A stretch of DNA of 64,000 bases from Gekko japonicus (taxonomy: Eukaryota): contig NW_015159759.1 of assembly GCF_001447785.1 (NCBI RefSeq), positions 68,112 through 132,111 of the forward strand, written 5' to 3'. Every line of letters begins with the position of its first letter. The first letter of the stretch is position 1. The position numbers are program-made. Below, piece after piece: positions 60,001 through 64,000 of the stretch.

Positions 60001-63000
60001 ACCAGATATGCAGAAACATCTGGGATTTAAGGGAAAAAACCTCCCTAAAATAATAGAACAAGTGCCTATACTTTAAGAAATGGGTATCATATGAGATCTC
60101 ATTGGCCATTGGGAGGGTTGCTAGGCAATTACAACAATATTGCCGGCTTTCAAGCCTTGTTTTCTGTCAAGAAAAAACTGGGGTGAGGGCCATTTGGGGC
60201 TATGCAGTCCACCCTTGCTCCCCACTCCCCTGCCCTGTAGGGAAGATGCACACTTAGCTATTTGCCCCCACAGGGGAATAACGAGACAGACAACCATTTG
60301 GATTAAACAAGGGCCACTTTATTAACTATATATATTTTATGAATAGCAAACTGGCAAGGGAGCACTTCCTTAGCAGCGGAACAGCCAAGGCAGGCGTCAG
60401 TCTGACCAGCCTCCTTGTCTGATACATATGGGCGATGCACCAACCCCGGTCCTGGGCCATTAACCTGGCTTGCGACCAGCAGCCCAGCCGCGGGTCGCCT
60501 CCCGGGAGCGCCTACCCCTGAAACCTTACAGTTTGCAGAGAGGAGCTTTACCCAAGAGGCTCCCGTAAGGAGTCCTCGTTTACCGCCCGGGGCCTTAATA
60601 GCCCGCAAGCCGTTCCCGAAGACCCCCCAGTTCCCAAAAGACGGGACGGCTTAAGGTGCTCACCAATTCCGCTGCCTTATTCCTGCCATATACTGCCAAA
60701 GTGACCGACCTATTTACCGTAGCCACGCCCTTACCCCTACTTCCAATGATCCAGTGTAAGGTAGGCGAAAAAACACTACCACCCTCCTTGCCAATCTTGG
60801 GTGATAGCGAAAAATTCCTACCTGGCTCCCAAATGGGCGACCAGCCGCAGCCTACACTAGCTTAACCGGGCGGGCGGGCGAGCACGAGGCTGAAACTGAC
60901 AAAGGGGGGCGGGAGCAGAGCCGTGCCTAGCCAGGCCGGCTCCGCCCCTCCCCACGTCCCAGCTCTCCAGGCGTCAGTCTGACCAGCCTCCTTGTCTGAT
61001 ACATATGGGCGATGCACCAACCCCGGTCCTGGGCCATTAACCTGGCTTGCGACCAGCAGCCCAGCCGCGGGTCGCCTCCCGGGAGCACCTACCCCTGAAA
61101 CCTTACAGTTTGCAGAGAGGAGCTTTACCCAAGAGGCTCCTGTAAGGAGTCCTCGTTTACCGCCCGGGGCCTTAATAGCCCGCAAGCCGTTCCCGAAGAC
61201 CCCCCAGTTCCCAAAAGACGGGACGGCTTAAGGTGCTCACCAATTCCGCTGCCTTATTCCTGCCACTTGCAAAGCCAAGCCTCTGCTTTGGCTGACGCGG
61301 CCACCAAACCACTTAAGGCAGCCGTGATCCCTTGCCGGATGTCCTCTAAAAATAACTGGTTGCCCTTGTCTGACAAGTGGATGCCATCCTCCCTGCACAG
61401 GTCCAGGTCCTAGACCCCTATTCCAAGGTGTGGTAGATACTGGCCCAAAACCACCCCCGTTCCGTCTAGAGAACAAGGAGCTTCCCGTGCAGAAAGACTC
61501 CGTCACCTTTTGGTCTATAATAAACTCTTGAACCTGCCCCTAAGTGCTAAAGTCGTGTTTCTCTTATAAATTCCAGAACTATACTCTGGTTGAACTTATT
61601 AAGAAGGGCACTGCACTTAACAAACATTACTACGAAAAACAATTGAAGAAAGATTTCATCGTGCTTTCATGTGTGCTTCATTCTTATAAGACTGAGGAAT
61701 GCCTATCTAGGCACTGTTGAAAGGAAACTAACAAGTCACACAACTTGTCTAATAGATGCTGAAAACCTAGCCCAAGTAAACTTCTCGTCCCTTCTGTTGA
61801 AAATGAGGATCAGCAGAACTGCTCATAACCGGAAGGGATCCTCCGGCTTCACTCTGTAAAATCAATAGTACGTTTTTTATGTAATGTCCGCGGTCCTTAA
61901 AGACTCTTGAGCTTGTCCTGGACTGCCAAGGAGCTCAAATCAGTCAATCCGAAATAAATCAACCCCGAGTGCCCCTTGTAAGGCCAGTTAAGGAAACTGC
62001 AGCTCAAATACTTTGGCTACCAAATGAGAAGGGAGCACTCCACTGGAGAAGGCAAGACCTGAAAGACTCTTGAGCCTGCCCTTAATCACAGTTGGGCTTG
62101 CAATAAAACAATAAAAAAGGCAAGCCTCGGCGGCCCCTCCAGCCAAAAGGTCCACGGATGTCGTTCCCACTCCAGGCTTTTCCCTTAGACTGGGGATAAA
62201 TAGGGCTTCGCTTCGAGAGTTGGACTACAGGGAAGGCTGAAAAATAGGTTCTTTTGCACTGCGGTGCTGGAGAAGTCTCTTGCGAGTCCCTTGGACTGCC
62301 AAAACGATCAAATCAGTCAATCCTAAAAGAGCTCCACCCCGATTGTTCCCTGGAGGGCCAGATAATGAAACTAAAACTCAGATACTTTGGCCACCCACTG
62401 AAAAGGGAGCACCCACTGGAGAAGCCCCTGATTGAAGGTCAAAGCAGACGGGGACCGCAAAGAACGAGGTGGCCAGACAATGCCAGCGACTCCACGAACC
62501 TGAAACCGACCCAACCCCAGAGGACGGCGGAAGACAGGGAGCTGTAGGACAAACCCTGCGCCAGCAGTAGCCAACTCGGCTCACAGTGGCTCCCAGTGAA
62601 CCCGAACCTGCACGCGGCTATTGCTCTGAGGTCCAGGCCCCGCCCCGCGACGTGCAGACCCTCACCTGGGACTCCCCGCCAGCAGCCACTTCCCTTGCTC
62701 ATTAGAACTGCCCGTGGAGTGGGTGAGGGGGAAACGCCGCGGCCAACAATGGGGCCCCTGCCACTTGTGCCCCTGGAGCGGGTGCAGGGGGAGCACCGCG
62801 CCAAACACTGGGCCCCCGCCACACGGACCGATGGAGTGGGTGAATGCAACTGGCCCCCGCTCCGTGCCGCCAGTGGTGAGGGTAAAGGGAAAGCCCCGCC
62901 TGAACAACGCCCCCCCCCCGTGTAGCCAATGGCGTGGGGGAAAGGGCAGCACCGCTCCTAACAATGGGCCATGTGCAGCCCCTGGTATGGGGGGAAGGGG

Positions 63001-64000
63001 AGGCGCCAAGCCAAGCCAGGCCCCGAGGCGGCTACCCAACCTGGACTCTTCCCGCCGCTTCGATGGGGGGGGGAAGCCTCCTATGTTGTCCCGCGCTGTC
63101 TCCCCGGTGGCCCACCGAGCAGCGGGGGGGGTGTTCACTCCCGGGCCAGGGCAAAAAGGCCGACTCACCCGGGGAGGGGGTGTCGCCGTAACTTACTCCA
63201 CCGGCCCCAGGCCTCGCTACCGGACGAAGGGGGCTCGAAGGGAGCTGCTTAGCCAGGCCATGAGGCCCCGCCGCCGCCGCGCTCCCCCGCGCTCTGGAGC
63301 CCCGACCCCCACGAGCAGCCTCCTGGCCTTCACGTCCCTTCTGCCCGCCCCCCTGACCGCCCCCGGAGTACTTCCTGCGGTCTTGCGCTGACCCGCTGAC
63401 GTTGGCGGACAACCCGTTCCGCGCCGCGGCCCGGCGATCGCTTCTGCCACCGCTTCAGCCGCCGCTGCTTTCCCTGGCCGATCCGCCCACACTACGGCCC
63501 AAGCGATTGCCCCCGCGCCACCGTTGTTGCCTTCGCTGCGGCCCTCGGCCCACAACACAGCCCAGTAGGCCCAGCAGCAAGGCAGCACCACCAGCCCCGC
63601 TTGCTCCGACCGAGCACGAGGCTGAAACTGACAAAGGGGGGCGGGAGCAGAGCCGTGCCTAGCCAGGCTGGCTCCGCCCCTCCCCACGTCCCAGCTCTCT
63701 GCGCTTTCCCCGCGGCGGCAAACCAGCCCCCAGCCACCATTGCCTTCGGCGGCGGCCGGGAGCTTCCTTCCATATGCAGAACAGATACTCTGTGTGCAGT
63801 TTGATTTTGCTTGCAGTTATCTCTTTGAGAAATATAATTGTTCTGTAAACAGAACATGGATTCTCTGAAAGTGAATCTCTGGATAACATGCCAGCTAGTT
63901 AGTGTCTGAAAGCAAAAACCTAAAGTAAAAATGTAACTGACCTTAAGGTAGCTAACTGGGAGCAGACCTTTGTGAGTAATACAAAATTGACGATCCACCA

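What the first reader, a model, noticed from the sequence alone, without database searches (positions are those of the whole stretch)
60275..63771. Young non-autonomous Ngaro-type element with split direct repeats (A1...B1-A2...B2)
Seen: a 298-bp repeat pair (2 mismatches) and an 89-bp pair (1 mismatch) in split order on the minus strand, with B1 abutting A2; very GC/CpG-rich; no TSD; no RT or recombinase ORF in the 2.3 kb between A1 and B1. Known: split direct repeats define Ngaro/PAT-type YR retrotransposons. Inference: a recently mobilised, coding-dead derivative that borrows enzymes in trans. Such derivatives are poorly catalogued, so it may be an undescribed family.
Basis: partly seen in the sequence, partly recalled or inferred. 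Interest (0 to 1): 0.7.

Follow-up and report, generated by a model that had tools for sequence, protein, structure and literature searches.

The report
Young coding-dead Ngaro-type retrotransposon copy
This stretch is most likely a recently arrived, gutted copy of a Ngaro-type jumping gene (one that normally inserts with a tyrosine recombinase), which keeps its split end repeats and a scrap of its last gene; it is an ordinary mobile-element relic.

Summary
The repeats are real. A 298-nt pair has 2 differences and an 89-nt pair has 1. The inner copies abut exactly, and no further copy lies in the window. On the minus strand the order is A1, 2345 nt, B1, A2, 190 nt, B2, which is the split-direct-repeat layout of Ngaro-type tyrosine-recombinase retrotransposons.

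New support: a minus-strand reading-frame remnant that ends 9 nt inside B1 matches the C-terminal end of GDSL/SGNH-hydrolase-like domains (library-wide E 1.2e-6). Xenopus Ngaro-like elements carry an SGNH gene there (PMC9210276).

The block is young. CpG o/e is 0.65 against 0.13 in both flanks, and all 3 repeat differences are CpG transitions. No RT or recombinase domain is present.

Movement in trans, family size and an autonomous partner could not be tested, because no eukaryotic DNA collection was open. The neighbouring RT/recombinase element (52560-57951) is a broken DIRS1-type element that shares no repeat with this one.

Departures from the canonical layout are the 190-nt spacer between A2 and B2 and 72 CpG-rich nt outside A1.

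Verdict: partly supported; a new member of a known kind; modest interest.

The parts
63611..63699 (-). A1, the 5' split direct repeat (89 nt)
   Evidence: It is 98.9% identical to 60879-60967. The single difference is a CpG transition.
62545..63610 (-). A1-proximal interior. It is 70% G+C with CpG o/e 0.70, has no recognisable coding, and contains a 59-nt tandem repeat (62711-62843, 2.3 copies).
62273..62544 (+). Second copy of a repeat about 150 nt long (62273-62424 is 78% identical to 61900-62051), followed by its continuation. The + strand translation looks like the tail of a LINE ORF; that likeness is recalled and was not confirmed by any tool.
   Evidence: The Atlas search returned only unnamed clusters and Pfam found nothing.
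61900..62051 (+). First copy of the same repeat of about 150 nt. It is antisense to the element.
61446..61899 (-). Interior stretch that is largely A+T-rich (39% G+C over 61501-61899) but still keeps its CpGs (o/e 0.66 over 61501-61899). No domain was found.
61254..61445 (-). Remnant of the C-terminal end of a GDSL/SGNH-hydrolase-like reading frame, including its own stop codon, which lies inside B1. The gene is broken: everything upstream of the last part of the domain is missing or unrecognisable, and the recognisable remnant contains 1 in-frame stop.
   Evidence: phmmer against 1.84 billion representatives gave P0001 at E 1.2e-6 and P0003 at E 7e-4. P0001's repeats carry Pfam Lipase_GDSL_2 at 34.2 bits against a cut-off of 32.9. 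The remnant aligns to the C-terminal end of 5 of those repeats. The tblastn bounds are 61445-61278 and 61403-61260. A profile of 6 P0001 repeats hits only this place among 3229 stop-free pieces of the window, at E 7e-4 and profile positions 174-198 of 201. Pfam itself gives no hit on the piece.
60968..61265 (-). B1, the internal copy of the 3' repeat (298 nt). It abuts A2 directly.
60879..60967 (-). A2, the internal copy of the 5' repeat (89 nt)
60689..60878 (-). Spacer x of 190 nt between A2 and B2. It is unique in the window and has CpG o/e 0.76. The canonical B1A2B2 layout has no such spacer.
   Evidence: A precedent exists: SIRE of VIPER is A2, about 30 bp, then B2 (PMC6681497).
60391..60688 (-). 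B2, the terminal 3' repeat (298 nt)
   Evidence: Both differences from B1 are CpG transitions.
63700..63771 (-). 72 nt outside A1 with 72% G+C and CpG o/e 0.90. It is not repeated anywhere in the block, and whether it belongs to the element is unexplained.
60275..60390 (-). It has 41% G+C and 2 CpGs and is probably flank. It holds the only minus-strand AATAAA in 60200-63800, at 60318-60323.

Best explanation
The block 60391-63699 is a young, internally deleted copy of a Ngaro-type tyrosine-recombinase (YR) retrotransposon on the minus strand. Its order is A1 (89 nt), a 2345-nt non-coding interior, B1 (298 nt), A2 directly after B1, a 190-nt spacer, then B2. Of the element's genes only the last part of the final GDSL/SGNH-hydrolase-like reading frame survives. 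The gag-like, RT/RNase H and YR genes are absent, so the copy cannot move by itself. The mechanism is inferred from the published model for this class. An RNA running from A1 to B2 is reverse-transcribed. The internal B1|A2 junction supplies the sequence that joins the two ends into a circle. A tyrosine recombinase then inserts the circle without a target-site duplication. Shown here are the exact split-repeat geometry, the hydrolase remnant in the expected place and orientation, the lack of a target duplication, the lack of RT and YR, and recent origin. Inferred, and less certain (about 0.4), is that it was copied in this deleted form with RT and YR supplied by an intact relative elsewhere in the genome.
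For: The repeat geometry is exact: the pairs are 99.3% and 98.9% identical and the inner copies abut. The two spacers are unrelated to each other, which rules out a plain tandem duplication. A minus-strand reading-frame remnant ending 9 nt inside B1 matches GDSL-like domains at their C-terminal end: E 1.2e-6 over 1.84 billion proteins, a Pfam Lipase_GDSL_2 hit on the matched protein, the position of the match within that protein's repeats, and the only hit among 3229 six-frame pieces of the window. It also has a 76-aa relative with the same C-terminal end, 22 of 48 positions identical. The nearest named Atlas clusters are all GDSL-type, at scores of 0.83-0.85, which is lead level only. In the literature, Ngaro is described as A1-[ORFs]-B1A2B2 (PMC8547959), and Xenopus Ngaro-like families have a fourth ORF with an SGNH domain after the YR (PMC9210276). 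For age, CpG o/e is 0.65 over the block against 0.13 in both flanks, and 3 of 3 repeat differences are CpG transitions with no other change in 387 nt. This argues for recent arrival under methylation and against an unmethylated island. The same genome holds other YR retroelements.
Against: Only one copy is seen, and no eukaryotic DNA collection was open, so copy number and a coding relative are unknown. The hydrolase remnant could not be tied directly to Ngaro ORF4 proteins: three word-indexed protein searches found nothing, Pfam does not hit the remnant itself, and the best solved-structure match, the C-terminus of an acetyl esterase, has E 0.39. SGNH/esterase domains also occur in some LINE ORF1 proteins (recalled). 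The 190-nt spacer between A2 and B2 is not in the canonical layout. The 72 CpG-rich nt outside A1 are not explained by the circle-junction model. The interior holds two diverged LINE-tail-like pieces on the other strand.
Confidence: 0.65

Rival explanations
1. This is in-situ decay. A complete Ngaro-type element inserted here and afterwards lost its coding region through deletion, rearrangement and LINE insertions. It was never copied in its present form and is not a member of a non-autonomous family.
For: Only a single copy is visible. The interior contains two LINE-tail-like fragments on the opposite strand. The hydrolase frame is cut off abruptly.
Against: The repeats differ by only 3 CpG transitions in 387 nt, and the interior keeps as many CpGs as the repeats (o/e 0.65). 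Several large events would therefore have had to happen within a very short time.
Confidence: 0.2
2. This is not a mobile element. It is a local template-switch or duplication rearrangement, or an assembly artefact in a GC-rich region such as a CpG-island promoter, and it mimics split repeats by accident.
For: The A1-proximal kilobase has CpG-island composition (G+C 0.67-0.73, o/e up to 1.06), and that composition continues 72 nt beyond A1. The same window holds a 97% duplication flanking an N run, so the assembly does contain duplications.
Against: A tandem duplication repeats its middle, and here the middles are unrelated. The inner repeat copies abut to the base. A hydrolase-frame remnant sits where a Ngaro-type element has one. 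All repeat differences are CpG transitions, which fits methylated DNA and argues against a protected island. No N lies in 60-64 kb.
Confidence: 0.1
3. This is an LTR retrotransposon or endogenous-retrovirus relic with rearranged LTRs.
For: It has direct repeats of LTR-like size and is young and CpG-rich. A minus-strand AATAAA lies 68 nt beyond B2.
Against: No pair of like repeats flanks a common interior; the two pairs interleave instead. There is no target-site duplication. Pfam finds no gag, protease, RT or integrase signal on either strand. Neither the repeats nor the A2-x-B2 unit begin with TG and end with CA.
Confidence: 0.03

Closest known systems
Ngaro-like retrotransposons of vertebrates, for example Xenopus DIRS-53_XT (PMC9210276)
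   Same: Both have split direct repeats with A1 at the 5' end and B1, A2, B2 at the 3' end. The repeat sizes are of the same order (236/152 bp there, 89/298 nt here). Both have an SGNH-type hydrolase frame as the last gene before the 3' repeats, and neither has a target-site duplication.
   Different: This copy has no gag-like, RT/RNase H or YR gene, and only the end of the hydrolase frame remains. A 190-nt spacer separates A2 from B2.
SIRE, the short relative of VIPER in Trypanosoma cruzi (PMC6681497)
   Same: SIRE is a coding-free unit made of A2, a short private spacer and B2 of a YR retroelement. The 577-nt A2-x-B2 unit here has the same build.
   Different: SIRE comes from a different superfamily and host kingdom. 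Its spacer is about 30 bp and this one is 190 nt. SIRE is known to be multi-copy, and copy number here is unknown.
Solo AB repeats of Cafeteria Ngaro elements (PMC8547959)
   Same: In both, A and B repeats persist without coding sequence.
   Different: Here the full A1...B1A2...B2 frame is kept around a non-coding interior, so this is not a solo AB product.
DIRS1-like elements, such as the neighbour at 52560-57951
   Same: They belong to the same order of YR retrotransposons and occur in the same genome.
   Different: DIRS1-like elements have inverted terminal repeats plus an internal complementary region. The finding has direct split repeats, no inverted pair, and shares no sequence with the neighbour.
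Non-autonomous LTR derivatives (LARD, TRIM, Dasheng type; named from recall, with Dasheng cited in the reference list of PMC9210276)
   Same: Both keep the ends of an autonomous element around a non-coding interior and are presumed to depend on enzymes supplied in trans.
   Different: They have a different end structure and a different integration enzyme.

Membership tests
Ngaro-type YR retrotransposons | Split direct repeats: A1 at the 5' end and B1, A2, B2 at the 3' end, with A1=A2 and B1=B2 | tested here: met
   Searches give an 89-nt pair at 98.9% and a 298-nt pair at 99.3%, in the order A1...B1A2...B2 on the minus strand. One departure is the 190 nt between A2 and B2.
Ngaro-type YR retrotransposons | B1 and A2 are contiguous, forming the internal copy of the end-to-end junction | tested here: met
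   60968 follows 60967 directly, and homology ends exactly at that point in all four copies.
Ngaro-type YR retrotransposons | Encodes reverse transcriptase and RNase H | tested here: not met
   Pfam was run on 27 + 52 + 2 stop-free stretches of both strands in 60.1-63.9 kb. There was no RT or RNase H hit.
Ngaro-type YR retrotransposons | Encodes a tyrosine recombinase, with the internal repeats downstream of it | tested here: not met
   The same Pfam scans found no recombinase domain.
Ngaro-type YR retrotransposons | In the Xenopus (amphibian) families read here, and in zebrafish elements by recall: a last ORF with an SGNH hydrolase domain after the YR | tested here: inconclusive
   A C-terminal remnant of a GDSL/SGNH-like frame ends inside B1.
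Ngaro-type YR retrotransposons | No methyltransferase-like domain; placement in the Ngaro clade by RT/YR phylogeny | not testable with these tools
   No RT or YR sequence is left in this copy.
Ngaro-type YR retrotransposons | Insertion without a target-site duplication | tested here: met
   There is no shared word at the repeat-defined ends. The nearest imperfect 27-nt pair is reached by 27 of 1000 shuffles.
Non-autonomous family mobilised in trans | Several dispersed copies with the same non-coding interior, and an autonomous relative sharing the ends | not testable with these tools
   There is no other copy in the 64-kb window. The open DNA collections hold only bacteria, archaea, phages and plasmids.
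DIRS1-like elements | Inverted terminal repeats plus an internal complementary region | tested here: not met
   No inverted pair of 25 nt or more lies within 60275-63771.
LTR retrotransposons / endogenous retroviruses | Two like LTRs around one interior, a target-site duplication, TG...CA ends, and gag/pol/integrase remnants | tested here: not met
   The repeat pairs interleave. There is no duplication of the target. There are no such Pfam domains.
Simple tandem duplication | The whole unit, including its middle, is repeated head to tail | tested here: not met
   The 190-nt and 2345-nt middles share no similarity at word size 7 and E<=1.

The most novel reading that the evidence does not exclude
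The copy may be one member of a recently active, purely non-coding Ngaro-derived family in an amniote-like genome. Its interior would have been rebuilt from captured LINE-tail and GC-rich sequence, and it would spread by borrowing RT and tyrosine recombinase from a still-intact Ngaro relative. It would then be a vertebrate counterpart of SIRE/VIPER, and it would show that the A/B ends and the B1|A2 junction are all that the enzymes need.
Probability: 0.3. Interest if true: 0.55.

Novelty: new member of a known kind. Interest (0 to 1): 0.35.

Why it matters
Tyrosine-recombinase retrotransposons are rare and poorly catalogued in vertebrates, and coding-free derivatives of them are hardly described; the clearest case I found in print is SIRE of VIPER. 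If this copy proves to be one of many, it would mark recent activity of a Ngaro lineage in its host. It would also define the minimal cis-acting parts: the A and B ends and the B1|A2 junction. As a single copy it is an ordinary, if neatly preserved, mobile-element relic. It is also a useful annotation point, because its A1-proximal kilobase looks like a CpG island and could be mistaken for a promoter.

Tried and rejected
The following steps led nowhere or were rejected.

- A translation across the B1|A2 junction was searched in the 5.8-billion protein set as an indirect count of copies. It found nothing.
- The hydrolase remnant alone, and aligned with P0003, was searched for longer relatives. 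Both searches found nothing.
- Pfam on the remnant itself gave no hit at E<=10.
- The solved-structure profile search gave as best match the C-terminus of an acetyl esterase at E 0.39. This points the same way but is not significant.
- The Atlas search on the LINE-tail-like ORF returned only unnamed clusters. The LINE identity therefore rests on recall.
- A profile of six P0001 repeats was run against all six-frame pieces of the window to look for more of the hydrolase frame upstream. Nothing more was found.
- The 27-nt imperfect flank repeat is not significant.
- A match of the 190-nt spacer or the 72-nt outer piece to anything in the window was sought, and none was found.
- Rfam and ARAGORN found nothing inside the block.
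- The neighbouring DIRS1-type element was considered as the enzyme donor and rejected. It has a different end structure, shares no sequence and is broken.
- P0002, the third hit, is a repetitive protein matched only over a short alanine-rich stretch. I dropped it as probably spurious.
- Genome contigs was not used because it holds only bacteria and archaea.
- Goodwin and Poulter 2004 is not held, so what I say of it is recalled.
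Full report
OBSERVATION. The repeats exist as described. The repeat finder and a BLASTN self-comparison give a 298-nt pair, 60391-60688 and 60968-61265, at 99.3% (E 9e-152). They also give an 89-nt pair, 60879-60967 and 63611-63699, at 98.9% (E 2e-39). The 89-nt copy ending at 60967 is followed at once by the 298-nt copy starting at 60968. In all four copies the similarity stops exactly at these points. Neither repeat occurs again in the 64-kb window. On the minus strand the order is A1 (63699-63611), 2345 nt, B1 (61265-60968), A2 (60967-60879), 190 nt, B2 (60688-60391). 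The two spacers are unrelated to each other, and the 190 nt match nothing else in the window. This excludes a plain tandem duplication, which would repeat its middle.

COMPOSITION AND AGE. The window is CpG-depleted, as in a methylating vertebrate genome. From about 60390 to 63771 the CpG observed/expected ratio is 0.63-0.76 in each repeat and spacer and 0.65 over the interior, including its A+T-rich part at 0.66. The ratio is 0.13 in 59000-60274 and 0.13 in 63772-64000. All 3 differences between the repeat copies are CpG-to-TpG or CpG-to-CpA changes, and there is no other change in 387 nt. So the block does lose CpGs, and its CpG richness speaks for recent arrival more than for a protected island. 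Gene conversion between the copies could exaggerate their likeness, but it would not explain the CpG content of the unique parts. I give no absolute age because the host's substitution rate is unknown.

CODING CONTENT. Pfam was run on stop-free stretches of both strands in and around 60275-63771: 27 of at least 70 codons (part), 52 of 30-69 codons (part), and two further short ones. None reaches a curated cut-off. The only matches at E<=0.1 (HTH_Tnp_Mu_2, PH_20, TP53IP5) score 13-18 bits, all below their cut-offs. No RT, RNase H or recombinase signal is present. The 2.4 kb between the block and the next element is also empty: 41 stretches gave one match (Nodulin_N, E 0.0099, 14.8 bits), well below its cut-off.

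THE NEW PIECE OF EVIDENCE. Reading the minus strand next to B1, I saw a frame whose end looked, from memory, like the last conserved block of SGNH/GDSL hydrolases. I tested this as follows.

- A short stop-free stretch of the frame was run by phmmer against 1.84 billion representative proteins. Three proteins scored E<=0.001.
- P0001 (3112 aa, E 1.2e-6, five matched stretches) carries repeated domains. One of them passes Pfam Lipase_GDSL_2 (34.2 bits, cut-off 32.9, model positions 3-140 of 178).
- The window's piece aligns to the very end of five of those repeats, about 165 residues after each repeat's first conserved block.
- P0003 (76 aa, E 7e-4) shares 22 of 48 aligned positions and the same C-terminal end.
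- P0002 is a repetitive protein matched over a short stretch, and I set it aside.
- A profile of six P0001 repeats was run over all 3229 stop-free pieces of at least 12 codons in the window's six frames. It hits only this place below E 0.01 (E 7e-4, profile positions 174-198 of 201).
- tblastn of P0001 and P0003 against the window finds this place (outer bounds 61445-61260) plus one weak P0003 match at 53351-53304 (E 0.12, 16 residues), which I take for chance.
- The nearest named Atlas clusters are all GDSL-type, at scores of 0.83-0.85, which is lead level only.
- The best solved-structure match is the C-terminus of an acetyl esterase at E 0.39, which is not significant.
- Pfam does not hit the short piece itself.

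The frame's own stop codon lies 9 nt inside B1. The gene is broken: all but the end of the domain is missing or unrecognisable, and the recognisable remnant contains 1 in-frame stop.

WHY THIS POINTS TO NGARO. Passages read in four papers support the assignment.

- Ngaro-like elements have A1 at the 5' end and B1, A2, B2 at the 3' end. In Xenopus they carry a fourth ORF with an SGNH hydrolase domain after the recombinase, with A repeats of 236 bp and B repeats of 152 bp (PMC9210276).
- The layout is given as A1-[ORFs]-B1A2B2, and solo AB repeats also occur (PMC8547959).
- SIRE corresponds to A2, about 30 bp of private sequence, and B2 of VIPER (PMC6681497).

A hydrolase-frame end that runs into B1 on the strand where the repeats read A1...B1A2...B2 is what an internally deleted Ngaro-type element should show. 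What I could not do is compare the remnant with Ngaro ORF4 proteins themselves. Esterase domains also occur in some LINE ORF1 proteins (recalled). However, nothing LINE-like follows this frame on its strand.

THE INTERIOR. From A1 inward, the interior consists of the following.

- About 1.07 kb is 70% G+C, with a 59-nt tandem repeat.
- Two copies of a repeat about 150 nt long, 78% alike, lie on the opposite strand (61900-62051 and 62273-62424, the second continuing to about 62544). From memory they resemble a LINE ORF tail. The Atlas gave only unnamed clusters, so this is unconfirmed.
- About 450 nt (61446-61899) follow with no recognisable domain, most of it A+T-rich.
- The hydrolase remnant comes last.

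I cannot tell whether the foreign-looking pieces were part of the unit when it was copied or entered afterwards.

HOW IT MOST LIKELY WORKS. The mechanism is inferred from the published model for this class, recalled from Poulter and Goodwin 2005 and Goodwin and Poulter 2004. The latter is not held, and I read neither paper. An RNA from A1 to B2 is reverse-transcribed. The internal B1|A2 junction templates the joining of the ends into a circle. A tyrosine recombinase then inserts the circle without a target duplication. This copy encodes none of the enzymes. I put about 0.65 on its being a Ngaro-type derivative. Within that, I put about 0.4 on its having been copied in this deleted form with enzymes from an intact relative, and about 0.2 on loss of the genes in place.

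WHAT DOES NOT FIT.
- The 190 nt between A2 and B2 are absent from the canonical layout. SIRE offers a precedent with a shorter spacer.
- The 72 nt at 63700-63771 are as CpG-rich as the block (o/e 0.90) but lie outside A1 and are repeated nowhere. The circle-junction model does not account for them.
- The only minus-strand AATAAA in 60200-63800 lies 68 nt beyond B2, in what looks like flank.
- A 27-nt imperfect direct repeat at 60358-60384 and 63758-63784 is reached by 27 of 1000 shuffles, and I do not rely on it.

THE NEIGHBOUR. The only RT and recombinase signals in the window lie on the + strand. They came from 225 stop-free stretches of at least 70 codons scanned. RVT_1 lies within 54792-55640, and an integrase N-terminal SAM-like domain lies within 56512-56937. 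They belong to an element at 52560-57951 with the DIRS1-type end structure:
- left end 52560-52655;
- right end 57812-57951;
- an internal region, 57635-57726, complementary to the first 34 nt of the left end (94%) and to the last 60 nt of the right end (87%).

The element is broken. The RT match is interrupted by 1 in-frame stop. The recombinase catalytic domain is not recognised at all. The longest stop-free stretch on its strand is 158 codons. A full count of breaks needs an intact relative, which I had no search left to fetch.

HOST. I do not take the contig for human. It carries a DIRS1-type element with recognisable end structure, and DIRS elements are reported absent from birds and mammals as such (PMC9210276 and PMC4350176, passages). 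I did not determine the species.

LIMITS. No supplementary files were read. The literature searches turned up no description of a non-coding Ngaro derivative in a vertebrate among the papers whose passages I read. That is not proof that none is in print.

VERDICT. The finding is a new member of a known kind, with interest 0.35.

Noticed in passing
window 52560-57951 (+): A broken DIRS1-type retrotransposon with the textbook end structure. It has inverted ends at 52560-52655 and 57812-57951, and an internal region at 57635-57726 that is complementary to both extreme ends. RVT_1 lies within 54792-55640 and an integrase SAM-like domain within 56512-56937. The RT match has 1 in-frame stop, and the recombinase catalytic domain is not recognisable.
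   Followed up: partly
window 39678-39998 (+): A weak Pfam LAP2alpha match (E 2e-4, 21.3 bits, below the cut-off). PMC9210276 reports this domain in the gag-like ORF1 of DIRS-like elements, so this is probably another DIRS-like relic and not a host gene.
   Followed up: no
window 26650-28028 and 28583-29972: A direct duplication of about 1.39 kb at 97% identity flanks the N run at 28095-28573. It may be a gap-flanking assembly duplication. The N run was left as it is.
   Followed up: no
window 1-1604: A tandem array with a period of about 366 nt and 91-93% identity between units. It is G+C-rich and has long open frames in several phases.
   Followed up: no
window 58394-58465 (+) and 21664-21737 (+): Two tRNA-Ala-like sequences (Rfam 44.6 and 34.3 bits; ARAGORN anticodons tgc and ggc). 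They could be tRNA genes or heads of tRNA-derived SINEs.
   Followed up: no
window 42402-42666, 48148-48431, 49407-49667: Three copies of a repeat about 270 nt long (77-86% identical; the first lies in inverted orientation relative to the other two). They are probably SINEs.
   Followed up: no
window 31888-32253 and 40331-40696: An inverted pair of 366 nt at 85% identity, 8 kb apart. Its nature is unknown. It could be the ends of another element.
   Followed up: no
window 20001-21000: A CpG-island-like kilobase (G+C 0.56, CpG o/e 0.71) in otherwise CpG-poor sequence. It could be a promoter or another young insertion.
   Followed up: no
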